A DNA stretch of 64,000 nucleotides from a virus. Location of the stretch: the IMG/VR virus record IMGVR_UViG_3300045988_145683, positions 1 to 64,000 of that record; one strand, given 5' to 3'. Within the stretch, counting starts at the first letter, position 1, and every line of letters starts with the position of its first letter. Position numbers and translations under genes: made by a program. Shown piece by piece: positions 1 to 41,378 of the stretch. A model generated the notes under the pieces. It searched no databases and was not told the origin of the DNA. It saw only the letters and a program-made list of their open reading frames with translations.

Positions 1-35
1 ATATATATATAAGGTTAAGAAAGGAATTGATAAAA

Positions 36-227
36 ATGAATGATTATGATGATATTTCTTGGGCAGTTGCGAGTGTAGCTTTTATGTTCATTGAAGTAGC
101 TATTATGTTATTTATTTGGAATACCGCTCTTATTCCTTGGTTTTGCTTTCCAAGCATTACTTATTGGCAAATGTTTGTCATTAAGATTTTTATTAATATT
201 GCGGTTCCTTCTCGCTCAAAGGAGTAA
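36..227 (+). CDS. small hydrophobic (2-TM) hypothetical protein
   Basis: Track ORF 27..227. ATG at 36 follows a purine-rich RBS. Hydrophobic segments. TAA stop. Confidence 0.35.
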   Translation: MNDYDDISWAVASVAFMFIEVAIMLFIWNTALIPWFCFPSITYWQMFVIKIFINIAVPSRSKE

Positions 228-232
228 TTCAA

Positions 233-493
233 ATGGCATCTTATGAAAATCATGATTTTTACTGTATGAATTGTGGACGAAAAGGAATCCCTTTGTCTCG
301 TCGAGTAAGTCTTCAACATGGTAAATTTCATCGTAAAAAACTGTATTGTATTTATTGCAAAGAAGAAGTAAATCATATCGAATGTAGAACTCCAGAAGAA
401 GTAGAAGAGTTTAAAGAAAATTTTGAGAATGGGGTGTATAAAGATGAAGCAAAAGAATCTTTGGATTATGTCCGGGGTTCCAGGCTCGGGTAA
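233..493 (+). CDS. zinc-ribbon hypothetical protein
   Basis: Track ORF. Two CxxC pairs (CMNCG...CIYCK). TAA stop. Confidence 0.4.
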   Translation: MASYENHDFYCMNCGRKGIPLSRRVSLQHGKFHRKKLYCIYCKEEVNHIECRTPEEVEEFKENFENGVYKDEAKESLDYVRGSRLG

Positions 494-956
494 ATCTACT
501 TGGCTTAAAAATCGTTGGCCTCAGTGCGGTTGTGTTGTTTCTCGTGATGCTCTTCGTTTTCAAATGTTAAATGATGATGAAAGCTATTTCGCCAAAGAAG
601 AAAGCGTATGGCATGCTTTTGTTGAAGCAATTACTCTTTCTTTAAGAGACTATGATGATGTGTATGCAGATGCCACGCATCTTGGACCCGGTTCTCGCAA
701 GAAACTTCTCAAAGCAATTAACGCAAAAGGATATGCAAATCTTAATGTGAATGTTATTTATTTTAATGTTCCTGTTGAAGTTTGCATTGAGCGCAATAAA
801 CAGCGTGATGGTCGAGCGCAAGTTCCAGAAGAAGTAATTCGGAGTATGGCAAATTCTTTTACTCCTCCCACTTTTAAAGAATATATTAAATATAACCTTA
901 TCCAAGAGGTCAATGAAAAAGGAGAAGTGATTCATACATGGCAATCTCATGTCTAA
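444..956 (+). CDS. P-loop kinase (AAA_33 / polynucleotide-kinase-like ATPase)
   Basis: Track ORF 423..956. Walker A SGVPGSGKST. Probable ATG start at 444. TAA stop. Confidence 0.6.
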   Translation: MKQKNLWIMSGVPGSGKSTWLKNRWPQCGCVVSRDALRFQMLNDDESYFAKEESVWHAFVEAITLSLRDYDDVYADATHLGPGSRKKLLKAINAKGYANLNVNVIYFNVPVEVCIERNKQRDGRAQVPEEVIRSMANSFTPPTFKEYIKYNLIQEVNEKGEVIHTWQSHV

Positions 957-1024: not shown

Positions 1025-1765
1025 ATGAATGTTGTATATAAAATTACTAATTAGACTAATAAAAAATCTTATATAGGCTCAAGTACTCGTGTTGAAACTA
1101 GATGGAAATAGCACATTAATAATGCTTTTAATCTAAATAATTCAAATTATTTTTATCCTTTATAGTGTGCTATTAGAAAATATGGAGTAGAAAATTTTAC
1201 TTTTGAAATTTTAAGAAATGATTTTAATGATGTTAATTCGATGGAAACTTATGAGCATCAAATGATTTTAAAATATAATTCTTTATGTCCTAATGGATAT
1301 AATTAGACTGAAAATACTAAATCTAATATTATCGCTCTTGAGAATACTCAAAAGCATATAAAAAAAATTAGTAAAAAATGTGCTTTAGTAAATGAATAGA
1401 ATGAAATTATTTCTATTTATAGTTCTTATCATGAAGCTGCAAGAGCTCAAGGGTGGGATGGCGATAAAAGAGCTACGACAATAAAAAAAATATGTGATGG
1501 AGAAGCTCATAGTTGTAATAATTTAATTTTTCGATCATTGGATGAAAATAATAATGTTATAATTCCAAAAGCAAAAACTCGAAAAAGACGTACCAAAATA
1601 AAAGGAATTAATATAAATAACCCAAATGATATTGTTTACTATGATAGTATTAGCGAAGCTGCTCGAAAAGAAAAAGTAGATCGAAGTAGTTTAAGTAAAT
1701 GTCTCGCTGGATCAAGTAGATATAGCAAAGTTGGTGGACGAAAATGGGAAAGGATAGGTGATTAA
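1025..1765 (+). CDS. free-standing GIY-YIG homing endonuclease (I-TevI-like), 5 in-frame TAG codons
   Basis: ATG at 1025. Reading TAG as Gln gives MNVVYKITN-Q-TNKKSYIGSS...RWK-Q-H...AIRKYGVENFTFEIL. The C-terminal NUMOD/HTH-like tail DSISEAARK...SSLSKCLAG corresponds to track ORF 1538..1765. TAA stop. Confidence 0.75.
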
Positions 1766-2636: not shown

Positions 2637-4022
2637 ATGCCCGCTATTATTTCATTTATCCTTCCGGCAATTCCTGTAGTTCTTATCGTGCTACTGGTAA
2701 TTTTCATTTTCCTCAATGGTTATGTAAAGGCTCCGCCTGATATGGCTTACATTATCAGTGGTGTCCATAAGAAACCTCGAATTCTCGTTGGTAAAGCTGG
2801 CTTGAAGATTCCTTTCTTCGAACGTTTGGATAAGCTGGCTCTCGGCGCTATTCAAATTGATGTAAAGACTGGATCTGCGGTTCCTACTGCCGAATACATT
2901 AACGTTCGTGTTGACTCTACAGTTTCCGTTCGTGTGGGTAGAGATCCGGAAATGATTGCGCTCGCCGCTCAGAACTTCCTTAACGTAGGCCGTGATGAAA
3001 TTTCTCGTAAGATTAACGACCTTCTTGAAGGCAATATTCGTGAGATCGTCGGTCAGATGAAGTTGACTGATATGGTTAGCGATCGTAAGCTGTTTAGCGA
3101 GAAAGTTCAGGAGAACGCAGTTCCTGATCTGGCACGTTATGGTCTTGAGTTGATTACCTTTAACGTTCAGAACTTCTCTGATGATAATGATGTTATCACT
3201 AACCTCGGTATTGATAATGTCGCTCAGATTAGCAAGAACGCGGCGATCGCTAAGTCCAATGCGGAACGTGAGATTGAGGTCGCTCGTGCGGAAAATGCTA
3301 AGCAGTCTAATGACGCTAAGGTTAAGGCTGCTGAGGAAATCGCAATCCGCAATAACGATCTTGCTATCAAGCAGGCTCAGTTGAAGCAGGAAGCTGATAC
3401 TAAGAAAGCTCAGGCAGAGGCAGCCGCTGGCATTGAGTCTGAAAATCAGCGTAAGCTCAAGGATGTTGCTGCGACTAACGCGAATATCGCAAAGGCCGAG
3501 CGCGAAGCTGAACTGAAGCAGAAAGAAATCGAGCTTAAGGAATATGAACTGACTGCATTGGTTCGTAAGCAGGCTGATGCTGATAAGTATGCTGCGGAAA
3601 AGGCTGCCGAAGCAGACCTGATTCGTCGTCAGAAGGACGCGGAAGCTAAGGCTTATGAGATCGAGCAGGAAGCAAAAGCTATGCGTGCTCGCGCTGAAGC
3701 AGAAAAGTTCGCAGCCGAGCAGAAAGCTGCTGGTATTGCGGCCGTTGGTGAAGCTGAAGCTACAGCAATCGACAAGAAAGCAGAAGCACAGAAGAAGATG
3801 GGTGAAGCTTCTATCATTGAAATGTATTTCAATGCAATGCCTCAAATCGTGGCAAATGCGGCAGCCCCTCTTACCAATGTGGATAAGATCGTCCAGTATG
3901 GCGATGGAAACTCTGCTCGTCTTGTAAAGGATGTTATGGGTTCCGCAAACCAGGTCATTGAAGCAATGTCTGAAAATGGCATCGACATTAAAGAGATGCT
4001 TACAAAAGCATTGAACAAGTAA
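2637..4022 (+). CDS. SPFH/band-7 flotillin-like membrane protein
   Basis: N-terminal TM helix, an SPFH core (PPDMAYIISGVHKKPRILVGKAGLKIPFFERL), then a long Ala/Glu/Lys-rich coiled coil typical of flotillins. GC and codon usage are clearly higher than in neighbouring genes. Confidence 0.8.
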   Translation: MPAIISFILPAIPVVLIVLLVIFIFLNGYVKAPPDMAYIISGVHKKPRILVGKAGLKIPFFERLDKLALGAIQIDVKTGSAVPTAEYINVRVDSTVSVRVGRDPEMIALAAQNFLNVGRDEISRKINDLLEGNIREIVGQMKLTDMVSDRKLFSEKVQENAVPDLARYGLELITFNVQNFSDDNDVITNLGIDNVAQISKNAAIAKSNAEREIEVARAENAKQSNDAKVKAAEEIAIRNNDLAIKQAQLKQEADTKKAQAEAAAGIESENQRKLKDVAATNANIAKAEREAELKQKEIELKEYELTALVRKQADADKYAAEKAAEADLIRRQKDAEAKAYEIEQEAKAMRARAEAEKFAAEQKAAGIAAVGEAEATAIDKKAEAQKKMGEASIIEMYFNAMPQIVANAAAPLTNVDKIVQYGDGNSARLVKDVMGSANQVIEAMSENGIDIKEMLTKALNK

Positions 4023-6260: not shown

Positions 6261-7562
6261 ATGACTAATATTGAAATAACTTGGAATTATTTATATAAAC
6301 AAATAAAAAACCCTTATGGAACGGCCGGGCTAATGGGAAACTTAAAAGCTGAATCAAATTTTAATCCAAAAAATCTTCAAAATAGTTTTGAAAAGACACT
6401 TGGATTAAATGACGAATAGTATACAAAACAAGTAGATAATGGTAAATATACTAATTTTATTTATGATAAAGCTGGATATGGTTTAGCTCAATGGACTTAT
6501 TGGAGTCTTAAAAAACAATTATATGATTTTACAAAAAAGAAAAATACTTCAATAGGAAACTTAAATACACAACTTGAATTTTTAATTTATCAACTTTCTA
6601 CATATTATCCTACCGTTTGGAATACTTTAATAAATTGTAAAGATATATAGACTGCTTCAAATATAGTTTTAACATAGTTTGAACGACCAAAAGATTAGAG
6701 TTTAAAAATCCAATAGTAGAGATTATATTATGGAGTTGAAATATATGATCAATTTATAGAAAAAGGTGAAAATATGAAAATTGTAGATAATTTAACAACA
6801 TCTAATTATCAAAAAGGTAATAATAGAAAAATAAAATATATTGTAATACATTATTTTGGTTCTTTAGGGACTGCAAAAAATATTAGTAATTATTTCAAAA
6901 ATCCTGTCGCTAAATCATCAGCTCATTATTGTGTTGATGAAAAAGATATTATTTATCGTAGTGTTAAAGATGAAGATATTGCTTGGCACTGTGGCACAAG
7001 AAAAGGATATAAACATCCTGAATGTAGAAATGCCAATTCTATTGGAATTGAAGTAAGACCTTGTAAAATAAATAAATCTAATATTGTAGCCAGTGATACT
7101 GATTGGTATTTTGATCCAAAAGCATTAGAAAATACGATACAATTAGTAAAACAATTAATGTAGAAATACAATATACCTGCGGACCACGTTATTCGCCACT
7201 ATGATGTAACTGGTAAATTATGCCCTCGTCCATTATGCGGAACTGACATGAATAGTTATTATAGAACAAGTGGCGATTACCAATGGTAGTTATTTAAACA
7301 AAAAATTGGTGATAATATAAATATTAATGAGGAGGATGAAGATATGACTTAGGATAAATTTAATGAGATGATGGAAGTTTATTTAAATCAACAAGCCGAA
7401 AAAAATGCAAGTTCTTGGTCTGATACGGAAAGAACTTGGGCTGAAAGTAAAGGATATATTAAAGGCGATAATTTAAATCGTAAAATGTATAAAAAATTTA
7501 TGACTCGTGAAGAAATGATTGTAGTTCTTTATAGAATTATGAAAGATAAAGGGTTGGTGTAA
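6261..7562 (+). CDS. modular peptidoglycan hydrolase / endolysin: tail-lysozyme-like domain + Amidase_2 + SLH-like C-terminal domain; 9 in-frame TAG codons
   Basis: Track ORFs 6774..7163 and 7368..7562 and the upstream segment from ATG 6261 are all in one frame. They are separated only by TAG codons (about 6415, 6648, 6676, 6700, 6718, 6721, 7162, 7279, 7348). Domain 1 has G(L/M)GNLKAES...GLAQW. Domain 2 is an amidase_2/PGRP-like fold (IVIHYFGS..., HYCVDE, GIEV). The C-terminus WAESKGYIKGD...MTREEMIVVLYR fits an SLH consensus. Confidence 0.75.
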
Positions 7563-15775: not shown

Positions 15776-15782
15776 AGTATTT

Positions 15783-16796
15783 ATGCTTACTTTAATAATT
15801 GCTATACTGGCGTTTATTATTGGTGGATTTTTAATATATTTTATTTTACGTCCACGACTAAATAATATTCAAAAGCTCAATGAAGAAATAGTAAAACAAA
15901 ATAAAGAGCTTGAATCTAAAAATTCAGATTTAGATGATTAGTATACAATATTATCAACGGCAGTAAAAAGTATTACTTCCAGAAAAGAAGAAGTAGAAAA
16001 TAATTTAAATATTCTTTAGTCCAAAAGAGACGAAGTTGAAAATAGTTTAAATTCTTTATAGAATCAGGCAAAGCAATCAGCGGACATTTTCTATCAGCAA
16101 TCAATGGAAAATGCTCGTGTTCGTCTTGAATATGATTTAAATAAACAAGAATTTAAATATACAAAAGCTAAAGAAGAATATGAAAATGAATATCAATCAA
16201 CTCTTGTTGATTGTTCTTTAGAATTATCTAATTTAATTAATTCTAAAAAAGAAGAATTAAATAAATTAGATGAAGAAATTCAATTACATAGTAGAGAAGT
16301 TGCGGCCGCAGTTGATGCTGCGAAACGTGCCGAAGAAATTAAAAATCAAGCTGATTTCTATAAATTATAGTTGTCTCAAATAGATATTGATGAAATCAGT
16401 CTTCTTCGTTCTATTGAACCAAGACTTCGTGATAAAGATATTTTAAATAAAGTAATTTGGAAAAGCTATTATGAAAAACCAACTACAGATTTGATTGGTC
16501 GAGTAATTGGCTCTGGAGTCCATACAGGGATTTATAAAATTACTAATTTAGAAAATCAAATGTGTTATGTGGGTCAAGCAGTCGATCTTTCTGCGCGTTG
16601 GAAACAGCACATTAAACGCGGAATTGGTGCGGAACCCGCCACGCGCAATAAACTTTATCCTGCTATGTTGGCTATTGGAGTAGAAAATTTTAGTTTTGAA
16701 GTAATAGAAGAATGTTCTCGTAAAGAGTTAGATGTGCGAGAAGATTACTGGCAAGACTATTTTAAAGCTAAGGAATTTGGGTATAGTATAAAATAA
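15783..16796 (+). CDS. membrane-anchored coiled-coil protein fused to a C-terminal GIY-YIG nuclease domain; 4 in-frame TAG codons
   Basis: ATG 15783 (MLTLIIAILAFIIGGFLIYFIL, a TM helix) is in frame with track ORFs 16104..16370 and 16371..16796. They are separated only by TAG codons (about 15951, 16017, 16047, 16368). The C-terminus has GIYKITNLENQMCYVGQAVDLSARWKQH...GVENFSFEVIEE. Confidence 0.6.
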
Positions 16797-24444: not shown

Positions 24445-26193
24445 ATGGACTATCAACTAAAAGCTCCTCGCATCCCGCAGTATTCAGCGGTCGAACAGGT
24501 GCTAACCAATAGAGGAATTAAATTACAAGATATTCCTCATTATCTTAATACCACTGATGACGACATTATCGAACCAGCAACTATTGATAGAATAGAAAAT
24601 GGTGCAAAAATGCTCGTCAAACATATTGCACAAAATGACAAAGTTCTTATATAGGTAGATAGTGATTGTGATGGCTATACTTCGGCGGCCGCACTCATGA
24701 ATTACTTATACTGTCTTTTTCCTGCGTTTGTGCAAAACAATATTTTTTATCGTGTCCATGCAGGAAAACAACACGGAATTATACCAGATAGTATTGATAA
24801 AGATATTAAATTAGTAATTGCTCCAGATTCTTCATCAAATGATTATTTAGAACACGAATATTTATATAAAAATGGTATTGACGTGTTGGTAATAGACCAC
24901 CATGAAGCTGATAAAATATCATAGTATGCTTGTATTATTAACAACCAATTATGTGATTATCCAACTAAATCTTTATCTGGTGTAGGAATGGTTTATAAGT
25001 TTTGTTGTTATATTGATGAACTTATGAATGTTCGGTATGCGGATCATATATTGGATTTAGTTGCTCTTGGAATGGTGGCCGACATGATGGATATGCGTGA
25101 TTTTGAAACAAAACATTTAATTAATAAAGGCTTACAACAAATCACCAATCCTTACTTCAGAGGCATAATCAATAGAGATTAGTTTCATTTTAATAATGAG
25201 ATTACGCCTATTGGAGTAGCTTTCTATATTGCTCCTTTAGTTAATGCAACTACTCGTGTTGGGACGCAAGAAGAAAAGCTCATGCTATTCGAGTCAATGC
25301 TTGATTTTAAGGGATACGAACTTGTCCCTTCAACAAAACGTGGATGTAAAGGTCAAGCAGAAACAAGAGTAGAACAAGCTTGTCGTAATTGTACTAATAT
25401 CAAGAATAGGCAAACTAAAATCAGAGACACTAGCTTGGAAAAAATTGAATAGATAATCGTAAATCAAAATCTTTTAAGTAATAAAATCTTAGGAATTAAG
25501 TTAGATGGATTTGCTGCTGACAAAAATTTGACTGGGTTAATGGCCAATCAATTAATGAGCAAATATCAACGTCCTGTTTTAATTCTTAATAAAACAATAG
25601 ATGAAGAAACTCAACAAATTTGTTGGGAAGGCTCCGGCAGAGGATACGACAAATCCACACTTAAAGACTTTAGAGAATTTTGTCAAAAATCAAATCTAAT
25701 TATGTATGCGGAAGGACATCCTAACGCTTTTGGATTTGGTATTATTGATGATAATTTTGATAAATTTATTGAATATGCGAATTCTGCTTTACAAGATTTT
25801 GATTTCACCCCAATTTATAGTGTTGATTTTATTTATCACACTAATGATTTAGTTGGAAAAGATATCATTGATATTGCTCAACTTAAACCACTTTGGGGCC
25901 AAGGGGTAGAAGAAGCATCTATTGCCGTTGAAGGAGTAAAAGTTGCATCAAATAACTTAACTTTAATGTCAAAAGATAAAAATCCTACCTTGAAGATAAC
26001 TATGCCAGATGGCATCAGTTTAATCAAGTTTAAGTCGTCCGAGGAGGAATACGAGAAATTGTATTCTGAATAGGGTTATGTGACAATTAATATCGTTGGT
26101 AAATGCGAACGAAATATATGGAATAATAATATTAGTCCTTAGATTATTATAGAAGATTACGAAATTGTAGATAGGGCTGCTTATTATTTTTAA
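24445..26193 (+). CDS. DHH-family phosphoesterase (RecJ-like ssDNA exonuclease), 6 in-frame TAG codons
   Basis: Track ORFs 24445, 24697, 24988 and 25528 are in one frame, separated only by TAG (24655, 24925, 25183, 25438). The apparent stop 26071 is TAG; read-through reaches TAA 26191. Motifs DSDCDGYTS, VIDHHEA (DHH), EGHPNAFGFGI (DHHA1). Confidence 0.7.
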
Positions 26194-35635: not shown

Positions 35636-36879
35636 TTGTATATTATTAAACGTGATGGAAGTATAACTCAATTTAATAAAAAGAAAATTATTAACGCAAT
35701 AAATAAAGCATTTATTGAAGTTGATGGTAAACTATATGAAGATGATACTGCGAAAGATATTGCGGAAGACATTGAAAGACAAATAAATCATTTCCCCGAT
35801 GGAAGTGTTGGAGTAGAAGATCTTCAAGATTGGATTGAAGATTATTTAATGCGTTCTGAGCGACGTGATGTTGCTCGTGCTTATATCAGATATAGATATA
35901 AAAAAGAAGTTGCTCGTAATAAAAAAGATGATTTTATTAAAGCAATTCGTGAAAAGCTCGATGGTAATAATGTAAAAAATCAAAATGCTAATGTTGATGA
36001 ACATTCATTCGGCGGTCGCACTGGTGAAGCAAGTAGTGTTGTTACCAAACAACTTGCGCTTGATTATTTACTTTCACCTATGGCTCGTAAGAATCATATT
36101 GATAATATTATTTATACTCACGATCTTGATTCTTATTATGTTGGTTCTCATAATTGTTTAAGTATTCCCTTTGATAATTTACTCGCCAATGGATTTAATA
36201 CTCGTCAAGCTGATGTTCGTCCTGCGGGCTCAATTAATACAGCATTTCAATTAATCGCTGTTATTTTCCAAATTCAAAGCCTTTGTCAATTTGGTGGAGT
36301 TAGCGCCACTCATTTAGATTGGACTATGGTTCCTTATGTAAGAAAATCTTTCTTTAAACATTTCAATGATGGTATTGAGTTTTTATATGAAGGATTAGAT
36401 ATGAACAAATATGATGGCTGCTATAGTAAAGAAACTTCTATTGAAGATGATTTTTATAAATCATTTCCAAAAGCATATAAATATGCTATGAAAATGACTG
36501 TCCGTGAAACTCATCAAGCTGCGGAAGGTCTTTATCATAATCTTAATACTTTACAATCTCGTAGTGGAAATCAATTACCATTTACAAGTATTAATTATGG
36601 TACTTGTACTAAACTAGAAGGTAGAATGGTAACTAAAGCATTATTAGATGTTTCTATTGAAGGTCTTGGTAAACTTCATAAAACTTCGATTTTCCCTTGC
36701 GGAATTTTCCAATGTATGAAAGGTGTTAATCGCAAACCTGGTGATCCTAATTATGATTTATATAGATTAGCATTAGAAAGCACCGCGAGACGCCTTTATC
36801 CTAATTACGCAAATGTTGATTGGTCTGGTAATGCAGGATATGATATTAATGATCCTCGCACTTATTTTTCTACAATGGG
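35636..36879 (+). CDS. nrdD: anaerobic ribonucleoside-triphosphate reductase NrdD, exon 1 (ATP-cone + core)
   Basis: GGAGG RBS then TTG 35636 (track start 35621). N-terminal ATP-cone (IIKRDGSITQFNKKKI). Exon 1 probably ends ...YFSTMG at about 36879. The exon continues into a TGA at 36911, consistent with an intron. Confidence 0.7.
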
Positions 36880-37730
36880 TAAGCGTAAACTCAGCCCATT
36901 TAAAATCTTTTGAACTGCGCCCGCAGGTGTCTCTATGAAGAGGCTAACGGTTAGGTCTTAATATAATTAGCTGTAATATTAAGATGAGACCGTGCTAAGA
37001 TTCATCATAATATTCATATAAAGGAGGTGCCCTTAATGTGGATATATAAAATAATAAATATTCAAAATAATAAAGTATATATTGGTTAGTCGATTAGACC
37101 AATTAATCAAAGATTCCAAAGACATATAAATGATGCTCTTAATAATATTCTCGATACTCATTTTGCTAGAGCAATAAGAAAATATGGTAAAAAAAATTTT
37201 ATTATAGAAGAAATTGATACAGCCAATACTCAAGAAGAATTAAATGAAAAAGAGCAATATTGGATTAAATATTATGATTCAGTAACAAATGGTTATAATG
37301 AAACAGATGCCATTTCTAAGTGTGGTGGAAATACTTACCAATCTAAAACTGAAAAAGAAATGGAAATTATTAAAGACAAAATTCGACAAACTAAAATAGG
37401 AAGTAAAAATCCTATGGCTAAAAAAATAAAAAGAATAAATATTCTTACTAATGAAGTAGATATTTTTGATACTATTATTAGTTGTGCTAAAGCTTGTGGA
37501 ATTTAGAATGGTAAAACTTCTATTACAGATAGATTAAATGGTAAAATTAAAAGTCCATTTAAAAATACTTGGAAATTTGAATATTATGATGAATAAAGTG
37601 TATCGACTATCCCTGATGAATGTAAGGGAGTAGACTTGGAGATAGGCACCAAGTCGAAGCGGAAGACAACTCTATCTTATAGATAGAATGATAATATAGT
37701 CAGTGCCGATGGTGACATCGGGTAAACATG
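36880..37730 (+). other. group I intron in nrdD with embedded homing endonuclease ORF
   Basis: The NrdD reading frame breaks between ...STMG and CRTANGWDINGF... Internal guide GCCCAT about 12 nt into the insert pairs with exon ATGGGT (U.G at the splice site). The insert ends in G. An RBS+ORF lies in a loop. Compare the T4 nrdD (sunY) intron. Confidence 0.55.
37036..37596 (+). CDS. intron-encoded GIY-YIG homing endonuclease, 2 in-frame TAG codons
   Basis: AAGGAGG RBS. MWIYKIINIQNNKVYIG-Q-SIRPINQRFQRH, with TAG at the invariant Gln (37087). Second TAG at 37504, inside a C-terminal HTH-like tail parallel to the 1025 enzyme. 3' boundary uncertain by about 1 codon. Confidence 0.65.
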
Positions 37731-38741
37731 TGTAGAACTGCAAATGGTTGGGATATTAATGGATTCGGTCAACTTAAAGATGGACGTGGAAATATTTGTC
37801 CTGTTACTATTATTCTTCCTACTCTTGCGATGATGGCCGTTACTCTAAATGAAAATGATAATTGGGATGACTATAAGTCATTATCCCAAGAAGAACGGAC
37901 TAAAATTGGTGTAGAACGATTTATGTCTTTACTCGATAGAAAAATCAATGAAGCACGTATTCAATTAATGGAACGTTTTGAATGGATTTGTTCTCAAGAC
38001 CCAGGCTCCGCGAGATTTATGTATGAAAATAATGTTATGGCAGGTTATGTTCCAGAAGAAGGAATTCGTTCCGCTCTTAAGCACGGAACTCTTGCTATTG
38101 GTCAGTTAGGTTTGGCTGAAACTCTTCAAATTCTTATTGGTAAAGATCATACCACTTCAGAAGGAATGGAATTAGCTAAACGAATTGAACAATTATTTAA
38201 AGATAGATGCGCCGAGTATAAAGAAAAATATAAACTAAATTTTGGAGTTTATTATACGCCCGCAGAAAATCTTTGCTATACTGCTATGACAAAGTTTAAA
38301 GAAAGATACGGCGAAATTCCTAATGTTAGTGATAAAGAGTTTTTTACCAATAGTATTCACGTTCCAGTATGGAAAGAAATGAGTCCATTTGAAAAAATTG
38401 AAATTGAATCTGAATTAACTGGTTATTCCTCCGCAGGATGTATTACCTATGTCGAACTTGATTCTACTGTAAAACATAATATTGATGCTCTTGAAACTAT
38501 TGTCAATTATGCGATGGATCACGATATTCCTTATTTCGCAGTAAACGTTCCTAATGATACTTGCCTTGAATGTGGTTATTGTGATGAATTTAATGATTCT
38601 TGTCCTGAGTGCGGAAGCCACAATATTCAGCAATTGCGTCGTGTGACTGGTTATCTTACAGGCAATTATAAAACTGCTTTTAATTGGGGTAAACAAAAAG
38701 AAGTTGAAGCAAGAGTAAAACATACAGGAGCATTAGAATGA
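37731..38741 (+). CDS. nrdD: NrdD exon 2 (glycyl-radical and zinc-ribbon C-terminal region)
   Basis: Track ORF 37728..38741. CLECGYCDEF...CPECGS zinc ribbon and an RRVTGYLTG glycyl-radical-like motif. TGA stop. Confidence 0.7.
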   Translation, partial: CRTANGWDINGFGQLKDGRGNICPVTIILPTLAMMAVTLNENDNWDDYKSLSQEERTKIGVERFMSLLDRKINEARIQLMERFEWICSQDPGSARFMYENNVMAGYVPEEGIRSALKHGTLAIGQLGLAETLQILIGKDHTTSEGMELAKRIEQLFKDRCAEYKEKYKLNFGVYYTPAENLCYTAMTKFKERYGEIPNVSDKEFFTNSIHVPVWKEMSPFEKIEIESELTGYSSAGCITYVELDSTVKHNIDALETIVNYAMDHDIPYFAVNVPNDTCLECGYCDEFNDSCPECGSHNIQQLRRVTGYLTGNYKTAFNWGKQKEVEARVKHTGALE

Positions 38742-39190
38742 AATATGCAGGAATTATAAAGAATGATTTGGCGGCGGCACCCGGAGTATGTGTATCATTT
38801 TTTACACAAGGGTGTCCGCACCATTGTGAAGGATGTCAAAATCCCGAAACATGGGATTTTAATGGTGGTAAAGAATTTACTAATAAAGTATTAGATGAAT
38901 TAATTACTGCTATTAATGCGAATAATGTTGAACGTAATCTTTGTATTATGGGTGGAGAACCTCTCTGCCCTGAAAATGAATTTTTAACTAATTTAGTTAT
39001 TACTGAAATTAAAAAAATATATCCAAATATTAAAATATATATATGGACTGGATATGTTTATGATGATTTGAAGAATAGTAATAATATTAGAATTAAGAAT
39101 ATATTAAAAACCGCTGATTATCTAATTGATGGACCATATATCCAAAAGGAAAGAGATATTACTTTACCTTTACGCGGTTCCCGCAATTAG
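38738..39190 (+). CDS. nrdG: anaerobic RNR activating protein NrdG (radical SAM)
   Basis: GCPHHCEGCQNPETW CxxxCxxC cluster. The terminal codon is TAG (39188); if decoded, the ORF extends to TGA 39232. Confidence 0.75.
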   Translation: MKYAGIIKNDLAAAPGVCVSFFTQGCPHHCEGCQNPETWDFNGGKEFTNKVLDELITAINANNVERNLCIMGGEPLCPENEFLTNLVITEIKKIYPNIKIYIWTGYVYDDLKNSNNIRIKNILKTADYLIDGPYIQKERDITLPLRGSRN

Positions 39191-39209
39191 AACATTATTA
39201 ATTTAAAAC

Positions 39210-39238
39210 TTGACAAAAAAGAAAATTTGTGATATAAT
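39210..39238 (+). promoter_or_regulatory. sigma70-like promoter TTGACA-17-TATAAT
   Basis: Exact consensus hexamers with a 17-nt spacer. Confidence 0.5.
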
Positions 39239-40832: not shown

Positions 40833-40865
40833 TTACCTCAAACCTTAAAGAAAGGAGGTAATTAC

Positions 40866-41378
40866 TTGAATATCCTCTTTTTAGATTTATCTACTAAATC
40901 TACTGGTTATTGTGTATCTAATAATGAGGGAGAAATGTTAGATTATGGACTGTTAACCGCGATTTCCTCTAATAATTTAGATAGAATACAAAAAATACAA
41001 GATTAGATTATTGAATTAGTAAAAAAATATAATATAGAGAAGATAGTAGCGGAAGATGTTCATCCTGAAACTTATGGATATTCTGATACTTCACGTTTAT
41101 TAATGTGGCTTCAAGGCGCAGTAATGTTAGGCGCACATGGAGTTAATTCTTCATTTACTTCCAAAACATTAGAGCTGATGTAGGCAAGTGAATGGCGCAA
41201 AAAACTCGGAATTAAAACCGGCCGCAGTGTTAAACGTGAAACTCTTAAACAAGCCGATATTGATTTTGTATAGCAAAAATATAATATAAAAGCCAATGAT
41301 GATATATGTGATGCTATATGTTTATATACTGCATATTTCACGAAAGAAAGCCCCAATAATGATTTTAATTGGGAATAA
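40866..41378 (+). CDS. ruvC: RuvC-family Holliday-junction resolvase (phage type), 3 in-frame TAG codons
   Basis: AAGGAGGTA RBS then TTG 40866. NILFLDLSTKSTGYCV and a C-terminal DDICDAICLYTAY motif. TAGs at about 40998, 41181, 41271. Antisense track ORF 41111..41356 is discarded. Confidence 0.65.

What the first reader, a model, noticed from the sequence alone, without database searches (positions are those of the whole stretch)
35636..38741. Group I intron splitting nrdD, carrying a TAG-containing GIY-YIG homing endonuclease
The NrdD frame runs ...YFSTMG and then into non-homologous sequence and a TGA. About 850 nt downstream the frame resumes CRTANGWDINGF... An intron-like insert lies between. 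Its 5' end has an internal guide sequence GCCCAT that can pair with the last exon bases ATGGGT (U.G at the splice site). Its 3' end is G. A looped-out RBS+ORF encodes a GIY-YIG enzyme, comparable to the T4 nrdD (sunY) intron with I-TevII. The homing enzyme itself needs TAG read-through.
Basis: partly seen in the sequence, partly recalled or inferred. Interest (0 to 1): 0.55.

Follow-up and report, generated by a model that had tools for sequence, protein, structure and literature searches.

The report
Mobile group I intron splitting nrdD

Summary
Exon 1 of nrdD ends at 36880 (…ATG GGT). An 850-nt insert follows (36881-37730, last base G), and exon 2 starts at 37731 (TGT AGA…).

- **Junction.** The spliced gene aligns without gaps, at 92.6-95% nucleotide identity, with intron-less nrdD genes of sister phages.
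- **What the insert is.** It is a group IA, T4-sunY-like intron. It shares an identical 29-nt P7-P7.1 block with the T4 nrdD intron. It belongs to a family found in 96 IMG/VR stretches and in Lactococcus phage 949 at the same MG|CR site.
- **Structure.** In a 34-sequence alignment, 96% of cells are paired against about 40% when the partners are slid. 37 pairs show compensatory changes.
- **Rfam.** The general model is below threshold here (16.8 bits). The cause is a large ORF in P6 and two extra hairpins after P3.
- **Endonuclease.** The GIY-YIG ORF (37036-37596) sits in the P6 loop. Its two TAGs are not special read-through, because the whole genome reads TAG as glutamine.
- **TAG pattern.** All three GIY-YIG endonuclease-domain genes in the window use TAG while nrdD has none and most neighbouring genes have none. 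This fits a published idea that recoding delays endonuclease synthesis.

Verdict: a new member of a known kind.

The parts
35636..36880 (+). nrdD exon 1 (TTG start, 415 codons, ATP-cone plus N-terminal half of NRDD). It ends ...TCT ACA ATG GGT.
   Evidence: Pfam ATP-cone and NRDD profile 2-249. Alignment to PDB 8p23. Gap-free alignment to the intron-less alleles L101, L103, L105 and L106.
36881..37730 (+). Group I intron, 850 nt, T4-sunY-like (subgroup IA features P7.1/P7.2). It ends in G (omega-G, 37730).
   Evidence: blastn hit to the T4 nrdD intron core, E 1e-5. 29-mer shared with 96 IMG/VR stretches. Covariation. Weak Rfam RF00028 hit on the 3' half.
36875..36899 (+). P1: exon strand AUGGGU (36875-36880) paired with internal guide GCCCAU (36894-36899), with U.G at the splice site. 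The loop holds the weakened P10 strand (CU-CA).
   Evidence: Sequence. P1 paired in 100% of cells in 34 sequences, and P10 in 91%. The exon base before the splice site is T in 69/69 intron-bearing alleles, against 14/80 intron-less ones.
36911..36913 (+). In-frame TGA that ends translation of exon 1 eleven codons into the intron. It lies inside the P3 5' strand.
36906..36912 (+). P3 5' strand UCUUUUG. It pairs with CGGAAGA at 37660-37666 and forms a pseudoknot with P7.
   Evidence: Compensatory U-A/C-G 18:16 at the outer pair, plus two more covarying positions; 99.6% paired. Rfam aligns the same bases as P3 in homologue L054.
36915..36944 (+). Two extra hairpins between P3 and J3/4: CUGCgcccGCAG at 36915-26 and GUCUCUaugaAGAGGC at 36929-44, separated by a conserved GUGU. 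They are P3.1-like peripheral elements, specific to this family and absent from T4 sunY.
   Evidence: Helices 4 and 5 (3 of 4 and 4 of 6 pairs with compensatory changes). MFE fold.
36947..36993 (+). P4 (ACGGUU 36947-52 / GACCGU 36988-93) enclosing the P5 hairpin (36957-36983).
   Evidence: (helices 6 and 7). CCGUGCUAA is shared with the T4 introns.
37000..37015 (+). P6 5' strand AUUCAUCAUAAUAUUC. It pairs perfectly (16 bp) with 37579-37594 and closes the loop that holds the endonuclease gene.
   Evidence: All 16 pairs show compensatory changes across the family (helix 8).
37020..37027 (+). Ribosome-binding site AAAGGAGG, 8 nt before the endonuclease ATG.
   Evidence: Sequence.
37036..37596 (+). 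GIY-YIG homing endonuclease gene (186 aa, stop TAA), with in-frame TAG = Gln at 37087-89 (YIG-Q-S motif) and 37504-06. Its last 16 coding bases form the P6 3' strand (37579-37594).
   Evidence: Pfam PF01541, 37.4 bits. PHROG homing endonuclease 1e-23. The first TAG column is Q in 16/16 homologues without TAG.
37605..37701 (+). Catalytic 3' core: P7 (GACUA 37605-09 / UAGUC 37697-701), P7.1 (37610-29), P7.2 (37633-55), P3 3' strand (37660-66), P8 (37671-87), J8/7 AUGAUAAUA.
   Evidence: Identical 29-mer in the T4 sunY intron. P7.2 has 4 covarying pairs. P8 folds as a hairpin in 30 distinct sequences. Rfam alignment.
37706..37721 (+). P9 hairpin CCGAUG-GUGA-CAUCGG.
   Evidence: 4 of 6 pairs covary, 99.5% paired. 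Same shape as T4 sunY CUGCAUG-GUGA-CAUGCAG.
37731..38741 (+). nrdD exon 2 (336 codons plus TGA). It starts with the Cys codon of the conserved TMGCRT motif and holds the glycyl-radical domain and C-terminal Cys cluster.
   Evidence: Pfam NRDD 264-562 and Gly_radical.
38738..39232 (+). nrdG (activase), overlapping nrdD by ATGA. The in-frame TAG at 39188-90 is the Gln of the RGSxNQ motif, and the real stop is TGA 39230-32.
   Evidence: BLASTP to T4 NrdG: RGSRNxNI against RGSDNQRL. TIGR02491 covers residues 2-157 of 164.

Best explanation
This is a mobile, self-splicing group I intron of the T4-sunY type. It is inserted in the phage's anaerobic ribonucleotide reductase gene nrdD, immediately before the Cys codon of the conserved TMGCRT motif.

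**Inferred from the anatomy**
- nrdD-nrdG is transcribed as one RNA.
- The intron folds: P1 (last six exon bases with guide GCCCAU), the P3/P7 pseudoknot, P4-P6, P7.1/P7.2, P8 and P9.
- A free guanosine attacks after U36880.
- The terminal G37730 then enters the G site and the exons are ligated. This restores a 751-aa NrdD.

**Shown**
- The boundaries.
- Homology to a proven ribozyme.
- Covariation for every variable helix.
- Presence/absence polymorphism of the intron among near-identical phages.

**The endonuclease**
- The P6 loop carries an independently translated GIY-YIG homing endonuclease gene with its own RBS.
- By analogy with I-TevI-type enzymes, it would cut intron-less nrdD alleles in co-infecting relatives. 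Repair would then copy in the intron together with the flanking T of the GGT codon.
- Its two TAG codons are read as glutamine, because the whole phage uses a TAG-to-Gln code.
- The host gene nrdD has no TAG. The endonuclease can therefore be made only when TAG suppression is active, presumably later in infection.
- The end of its ORF is one strand of P6, so translation and splicing of a given transcript should be mutually exclusive.
For: - **Boundaries.** Gap-free alignment of the spliced gene with intron-less alleles L101, L103, L105 and L106, and 92.6-95% identity across L101-L108. Continuous protein alignment across TMGCRT.
- **Homology.** 62-71 nt match to the T4 nrdD intron core, including an identical 29-mer. 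That T4 core scores 101 bits on Rfam RF00028.
- **Family.** The 29-mer occurs in 96 IMG/VR stretches, most ending G|TGTAGAAC at the same site. Lactococcus phage 949 has an ORF-less member at the same site.
- **Structure.** 96.2% of cells paired against 38-44% when slid. 37 pairs have changes on both sides. Covariation score 0.423 against 0.07-0.085. 0/500 shuffles reach the observed values. P8 is a hairpin in 30 distinct variants.
- **U at -1.** GGT in 69/69 intron-bearing alleles, against 14/80 intron-less ones.
- **Endonuclease.**
- **TAG = Gln.** A 2583-codon ORF with 23 in-frame TAGs and many similar cases. TAG aligns with invariant Q in the endonuclease and in NrdG.
- **TAG share of Gln codons.** 0/24 in nrdD and 0/49 in DnaE. 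2/9, 5/8 and 4/19 in the three GIY-YIG endonuclease-domain genes.
Against: - Rfam's group I model finds nothing in the window at its curated threshold. Even at E<=1 it finds nothing when the ORF is included. Only a truncated 16.8-bit hit appears on the 3' half.
- No splicing data exist for this sequence.
- This copy has a 1-nt deletion in the P10 strand and a G-to-A change in J8/7 relative to the family consensus. Both are shared with a few other contigs (L050, L057, L027), so they are probably tolerated.
- P7 and P7.1 are invariant only because the family was collected with that 29-mer, so they carry no covariation evidence.
- The timing argument is weakened because nrdG, in the same operon, also has one TAG near its end.
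- No suppressor tRNA lies in the window.
Confidence: 0.9

Rival explanations
1. Gene in pieces. A homing-endonuclease cassette has split nrdD and there is no splicing. The two halves are made as separate polypeptides that assemble, as in Aeromonas phage Aeh1 nrdA.
For: The last three intron bases are ATG, in frame with exon 2, so an ORF M-CRTANG... (37728-38741) exists. Split but functional RNR genes are documented in phages (PMC3653736).
Against: No ribosome-binding site precedes that ATG, and relatives have ACG/GTG there. The non-coding 290 nt are conserved and covary as RNA helices, which a mere cassette would not need. U at -1 is strictly linked to the insert. The split would separate the conserved TMGCRT motif between Gly and Cys.
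Confidence: 0.04
2. Decayed intron and dead endonuclease. The insert is a relic that no longer splices or homes, the TAGs are nonsense mutations, and nrdD is a pseudogene.
For: Rfam is below threshold. P10 is weakened and there is one J8/7 change. Two in-frame TAGs under the standard code.
Against: Every helix in this copy is fully paired. Both exons are intact and 92.6-95% identical to uninterrupted alleles, with no frameshift. TAG occurs in frame in long structural genes and in nrdG at conserved Gln positions. The GIY-YIG domain matches the full Pfam profile, positions 2-78 of 78.
Confidence: 0.05
3. The TAG codons in the endonuclease are neutral. They are a by-product of living in a recoded genome with relaxed selection on a selfish gene, not a timing device.
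For: TAG also occurs in RecJ-like, RuvC-like and nrdG genes on the same strand. A selfish gene need not be expressed early, so TAGs can drift in.
Against: All three GIY-YIG endonuclease-domain genes in the window are TAG users, set mostly among TAG-free genes. An intron endonuclease was among the gene families most biased towards the recoded codon in TGA-recoded Agate phages (bioRxiv 10.1101/2021.08.26.457843).
Confidence: 0.45

Closest known systems
Phage T4 nrdD (sunY) group I intron with I-TevII
   Same: Same host gene. The RNA core is homologous: identical 29-nt P7-P7.1, similar J1/3-P3, P4' CCGU-GCUAA, P9 with a GUGA loop, P7.1/P7.2, and no P2. It also carries a GIY-YIG endonuclease.
   Different: Different insertion site: about codon 182 in T4, against 415|416 here. 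The T4 ORF lies after P9 and here it is in the P6 loop. T4 lacks the two hairpins after P3. The endonucleases are unrelated beyond the family (E 0.95). T4 uses the standard code.
Lactococcus phage 949 nrdD intron (annotated as a non-coding intron; PMC3653736)
   Same: Same intron family and same insertion site (…PMG|CRS…). It has the same P1 guide GCCCAU, the same two extra hairpins and the same order of core elements.
   Different: No ORF, and about 320 nt long. Its P7.1 sequence has diverged. Its host phage shows no sign of recoding in the stretch examined.
Thomasclavelia phage TR-TP1/TR-TP2 nrdD intron
   Same: The nrdD is 71% identical to the window's and is split by a group I intron carrying an endonuclease. 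P4-P5-P6 and J8/7 are related.
   Different: Inserted 4 nt upstream (AT|GGGT). It has a conventional P2 and P3-J3/4. It carries an HNH endonuclease, not a GIY-YIG one. Rfam score 27.9 bits.
Recoded group I intron endonuclease in TGA-recoded 'Agate' phages (Borges et al., bioRxiv 10.1101/2021.08.26.457843)
   Same: An intron-encoded homing endonuclease inside an early, standard-code gene carries the recoded stop codon. Delayed endonuclease synthesis was proposed.
   Different: There TGA is read as Trp, and here TAG as Gln. The host gene and intron family are not specified in the text I read.

Membership tests
Group I intron | P1 formed by the last exon bases and an internal guide sequence, with U.G at the 5' splice site | tested here: met
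   AUGGGU/GCCCAU. 100% paired in 34 homologues. T at -1 in 69/69 intron-bearing alleles.
Group I intron | Terminal guanosine (omega-G) at the 3' splice site | tested here: met
   G37730. The position is fixed by gap-free alignment with intron-less alleles, and the column is invariant in A1.
Group I intron | Conserved core P3-P8, P4-P6 and P7 with the R (GUnnAnCGACUA) and S (AnGAUAUAGUC) elements, supported by covariation | tested here: met
   Homology to the T4 sunY core. 96.2% of cells paired, 37 compensatory pairs, slid controls about 40%. P7 and P7.1 are invariant by construction of the sample.
Group I intron | Score at or above the Rfam RF00028 gathering threshold (50 bits) | tested here: not met
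   No hit in the window. 16.8 bits on the 3' half alone. ORF-less homologue L054 scores 19.6 bits full-length. The T4 core scores 101 bits. The shortfall comes from the 560-nt ORF in P6 and the roughly 30-nt insertion after P3.
Group I intron | Guanosine-dependent self-splicing | not testable with these tools
   Needs in-vitro transcription with GTP, or RT-PCR.
Subgroup IA (T4-phage type) | P7.1 and P7.2 hairpins between P7 and the P3 3' strand | tested here: met
   P7.1 at 37610-29 and P7.2 at 37633-55. P7.2 has 4 covarying pairs. Rfam treats them as an insertion at the same place as in T4.
GIY-YIG homing endonuclease | GIY-YIG catalytic domain above the Pfam threshold | tested here: met
   PF01541, 37.4 bits against a cut-off of 22.6, profile positions 2-78 of 78, with TAG read as Q. 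PHROG homing endonuclease 1e-23.
GIY-YIG homing endonuclease | Site-specific cleavage of the intron-less allele and intron homing | not testable with these tools
   Indirect only: intron-less alleles at 92.6-95% nt identity exist in sister phages.
I-TevII orthologue | Significant sequence similarity to T4 I-TevII | tested here: not met
   BLASTP E 0.95.
TAG-to-Gln recoded phage (genetic code 15) | Many in-frame TAGs in otherwise intact genes, aligning with Gln in homologues | tested here: met
   23 TAGs in a 2583-codon ORF and similar cases. Q in 16/16 and 17/17 at two endonuclease columns. NrdG RGSxNQ. TAG makes up 13-36% of Gln codons in the five large minus-strand ORFs sampled.
TAG-to-Gln recoded phage (genetic code 15) | Phage-encoded suppressor tRNA(CUA) | tested here: inconclusive
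   No tRNA in these 64 kb. The rest of the genome is not available.

The most novel reading that the evidence does not exclude
The TAG codons act as a genetic-code lock on a selfish gene. The endonuclease can be translated only after the phage switches the cell to TAG=Gln, so DNA cutting, and ribosome traffic through P6 that would block splicing, are kept away from the early phase when NrdD is needed. The same intron family occurs with TAG-free endonuclease genes and with TAG-bearing ones. The code would then also act as a one-way barrier: TAG-bearing copies are inert if they home into standard-code phages.
Probability: 0.3. Interest if true: 0.6.

Novelty: new member of a known kind. Interest (0 to 1): 0.35.

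Why it matters
- **Annotation.** Without splicing and code 15, nrdD is called as two fragments, the endonuclease as three, and nrdG is cut short.
- **Detection.** A large, well-conserved family of phage group I introns is missed by the standard Rfam model, so intron counts in gut phages are likely to be underestimates.
- **Biology.** The window offers a clean natural contrast: TAG-free host gene against TAG-bearing intron endonuclease, with intron-less sister alleles available. This could test the published idea that stop-codon recoding times the expression of selfish and late genes.

Tried and rejected
- **Rfam on the window.** Rfam on the whole window and on 36700-37900 found nothing. I first read this as possible refutation. 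I then calibrated the model on the T4 intron (101 bits) and on an ORF-less homologue (19.6 bits), and concluded it is a sensitivity limit.
- **Rfam on homologues.** Rfam on five loci with ORF-less homologues, in one 38-kb search, found no intron. The filters are too strict at that size.
- **Other P3 pairings.** I considered GUGUCU/AGAC-A-AC and GUCUU/AAGAC as P3. I rejected both in favour of UCUUUUG/CGGAAGA, which covaries and matches T4 and the Rfam alignment.
- **MFE alternative.** The MFE fold pairs AUCUUU with AAGAUU. That partner is not conserved in the family, so I rejected it.
- **P8 columns.** MAFFT columns for P8 are out of register, so I assessed P8 per sequence instead.
- **Intein.** Ruled out, because the insert has stops in the NrdD frame.
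- **A second copy in the window.** The J8/7-P7 motif RATATAGTC occurs twice, which is the chance level.
- **Internal promoter.** No convincing internal promoter for the endonuclease was found (best 9/12).
Full report
**Observation**

The window holds an nrdD-nrdG operon on the + strand.
- The NrdD frame starts at TTG 35636, behind a GGAGG. It runs to ...YFSTMG (GGT 36878-80), continues 11 codons into unrelated sequence and stops at TGA 36911-13.
- The frame resumes as CRTANGW... at 37731.
- Pfam puts the first part on NRDD profile positions 2-249 (plus an ATP-cone). It puts the second on 264-562 (plus the glycyl-radical domain).
- Joining 36880 to 37731 gives a 751-aa protein. It aligns from end to end with the solved NrdD 8p23 (E 3e-126) and reads straight through ...sTMGCRT....
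- IMG/VR holds sister phages whose nrdD is uninterrupted. The spliced 2256-nt gene aligns with L101-L108 at 92.6-95% nucleotide identity. The alignment is gap-free in L101, L103, L105 and L106 and has 2-3 small gap openings in L102, L107 and L108.

**What the insert is**

- Rfam's general group I model finds nothing at its curated threshold, or even at E<=1, when the ORF is included. On the 3' 156 nt alone it gives a truncated 16.8-bit hit. That hit lines up the R element (GUGUAUCGACUA), P3', P8, the S element (AUGAUAAUAUAGUC) and P9.
- A blastn of the intron with its ORF removed hits the core of the phage T4 nrdD (sunY) intron (E 1e-5). The match includes a 29-nt identical stretch covering P7 and P7.1.
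- That T4 core scores 101 bits on the same Rfam model, so the window's intron is homologous to a proven ribozyme.
- The exact 29-mer occurs in 96 stretches of IMG/VR viral contigs and 13 MAG contigs from animal guts.
- Most of these end ...G|TGTAGAAC and begin ATGGGT|AAG.GTAAAC..., so they sit at the same nrdD site.
- Lactococcus phage 949 is a cultured phage whose nrdD is described as split by a non-coding intron (PMC3653736). It carries an ORF-less member of the same family at the same site.
- Other ORF-less members are 238-304 nt long. One of them (L054) is aligned full-length by Rfam at 19.6 bits, with P3, P7, P8 and P9 placed where I place them. The model skips a family-specific insertion.

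**Structure**

I aligned 34 distinct family members, each as 5' core plus 3' core with the P6 loop removed (A1). I then counted pairs for P1, P10, P3, two extra hairpins, P4, P5, P6, P7, P7.1, P7.2 and P9.

| Measure | Observed | Control |
|---|---|---|
| Cells forming standard pairs | 96.2% | 38-44% with partners slid by 1-3 columns |
| Pairs with changes on both sides | 37 (398 cells) | 21-26 pairs when slid |
| Covariation score | 0.423 | 0.07-0.085 when slid |
| Shuffles reaching the observed value | 0 of 500 | – |

- P3 (UCUUUUG 36906-12 with CGGAAGA 37660-66) switches between U-A and C-G 18:16 at its outer pair.
- All 16 pairs of P6 covary.
- P7.2 and P9 each have four covarying pairs.
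- P8 is out of register in the alignment, but it folds as a 4-8 bp hairpin in each of 30 distinct variants.
- P7 and P7.1 are invariant only because the sample was collected with that 29-mer.
- In the window's own copy every helix is fully paired.
- Two features of this copy differ from the family consensus: a 1-nt deletion in the P10 strand and a G-to-A change in J8/7. Both are shared with a few other contigs (L050, L057, L027).
- The family differs from T4 sunY by two covarying hairpins (36915-26 and 36929-44) and a conserved GUGU between the P3 5' strand and J3/4. P3.1 is listed among the optional group I pairings (PMC3873408). These hairpins, together with the ORF in P6, explain the low Rfam score.

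**Splice-site signature**

A group I intron needs U as the last exon base.
- The Gly codon before the junction is GGT in 69 of 69 intron-bearing alleles, with the third position left free in the search.
- In 80 intron-less alleles it is GGA 46, GGC 16, GGT 14 and GGG 4.
- The four closest intron-less alleles whose junction I printed (L101, L103, L105, L106) read ATGGGA|TGTAGA.
- This fits co-conversion of the flank during homing and selection for the U.G pair.

**The endonuclease**

- ORF 37036-37596 has RBS AAAGGAGG eight bases upstream and lies in the P6 loop. Its last 16 coding bases are the 3' strand of P6.
- It matches Pfam GIY-YIG over the whole profile and PHROG homing-endonuclease families.
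- It is not similar to I-TevII.
- Within the intron family the P6 loop holds different cargoes: this 186-aa enzyme, longer GIY-YIG forms, a 174-aa GIY-YIG form, an unrelated 160-170-aa ORF that I did not classify, or nothing.

**The TAG codons**

- Allowing TAG to be read, the window's long ORFs heal. One has 2583 codons with 23 TAGs, another 775 codons with 10, and so on.
- The endonuclease's first TAG falls in the YIG-Q-[ST] motif, where 16 of 16 homologues without TAG have Q. Another TAG-bearing column has Q in 17 of 17.
- nrdG has an in-frame TAG at the Q of RGSxNQ. T4 NrdG reads RGSDNQ, and the NrdG model TIGR02491 extends past the TAG.
- The genome therefore uses TAG = Gln, and the 'read-through' is not special to this gene.
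- The intron-less sister phages share the nrdG TAG.
- No tRNA lies in the window.

TAG as a share of Gln codons:

| Gene | TAG / all Gln codons |
|---|---|
| nrdD | 0/24 |
| DnaE | 0/49 |
| Most other + strand genes | 0 |
| Intron endonuclease | 2/9 |
| Free-standing GIY-YIG gene 1025-1765 | 5/8 |
| TM/coiled-coil GIY-YIG gene 15777-16796 | 4/19 |
| Endolysin | 9/25 |
| Five large minus-strand ORFs sampled | 13-36% |

Borges et al. reported the same pattern for a group I intron endonuclease in TGA-recoded Agate phages. They proposed that it delays endonuclease synthesis until late. The window is the TAG counterpart. The nrdG TAG weakens a strict early/late reading. A neutral explanation, relaxed selection on a selfish gene, is not excluded.

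**Mechanism**

- Shown: exact boundaries, homology to a self-splicing intron, covariation-supported fold, U at -1 linked to the intron, presence/absence among near-identical phages, an intact GIY-YIG gene, and TAG = Gln.
- Inferred: guanosine-initiated splicing that restores NrdD. Homing by cleavage of intron-less alleles in co-infecting relatives. Endonuclease translation dependent on TAG suppression. Mutual exclusion of ORF translation and P6 formation.

**Comparison and verdict**

Group I introns in phage ribonucleotide reductase genes are classic: T4 nrdD and nrdB, Twort nrdE, SPbeta. They are frequent in gut phages, where nrdD is split in 95 of 104 Jug phage genomes and splicing is seen in metatranscriptomes.

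This intron is a member of an existing, widespread family. A published phage already carries a member at the same site. The recoded-endonuclease idea is also published for another code.

I rate it a new member of a known kind, of modest interest. The most useful by-products are the annotation fixes, the evidence that Rfam misses this family, and a tidy system for testing code-gated endonuclease expression.

Noticed in passing
window 1025-1765 (+): A free-standing GIY-YIG homing endonuclease gene (PHROG 6e-26) lies between a polynucleotide-kinase-like gene and a phosphoesterase gene. 5 of its 8 Gln codons are TAG, while both neighbours have none.
   Followed up: partly
window 15777-16796 (+): A protein with an N-terminal membrane helix, a long coiled coil and a C-terminal GIY-YIG domain (Pfam 4.8e-9). 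It has 4 in-frame TAGs. The architecture is unusual for a nuclease.
   Followed up: partly
window 6261-7562 (+): An endolysin (lysozyme-like plus amidase) sits on the replication-gene strand with 9 TAGs (36% of Gln codons), among TAG-free neighbours. This matches the published bias of lysis genes towards the recoded codon.
   Followed up: partly
window 2637-4022 (+): An SPFH/Band-7 flotillin-like gene has 41.5% GC in a 30% GC genome and uses CAG 19 times against CAA 2, the reverse of every other gene. It looks recently acquired. The opposite strand is also open over its whole length.
   Followed up: partly
window 39188-39238 (+): nrdG needs TAG = Gln to reach its real stop at 39230-32. The 14-codon extension overlaps a perfect sigma-70 consensus promoter (TTGACA-17-TGnTATAAT, 39210-39238) for the next gene.
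   Followed up: partly
window ~42000: Gene orientation and GC skew both flip here. The + strand replication genes lie to the left and the TAG-rich minus-strand structural genes to the right.
   Followed up: no
loci L004, L030, L057 (IMG/VR): Some members of the intron family carry a second insertion of about 200 nt with its own RBS and a small ORF (MFSYIQYFP...). It sits inside the second post-P3 hairpin, in addition to the endonuclease in P6.
   Followed up: no
loci L088, L093 (IMG/VR): The same nrdD genes can carry another intron further upstream, after ...YHNLN, with P4-like CTAAACGGGG…CCCGTGCTAAA. This is roughly where the T4 sunY intron sits, so nrdD has at least three intron sites within this phage group.
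   Followed up: no
L001 (Thomasclavelia phage TR-TP2) 4023-4896: A different group I intron with an HNH endonuclease sits 4 nt upstream of the window's site in a 71%-identical nrdD. The record annotates it as two separate nrdD genes.
   Followed up: partly
window 24445-26193 and 40833-41378 (+): The RecJ-like exonuclease (6 TAGs) and a possible RuvC-like gene (3 TAGs; named from its sequence by eye, with no Pfam hit) are the only replication/recombination genes on this strand that use TAG heavily. There may be a middle or late expression class.
   Followed up: no
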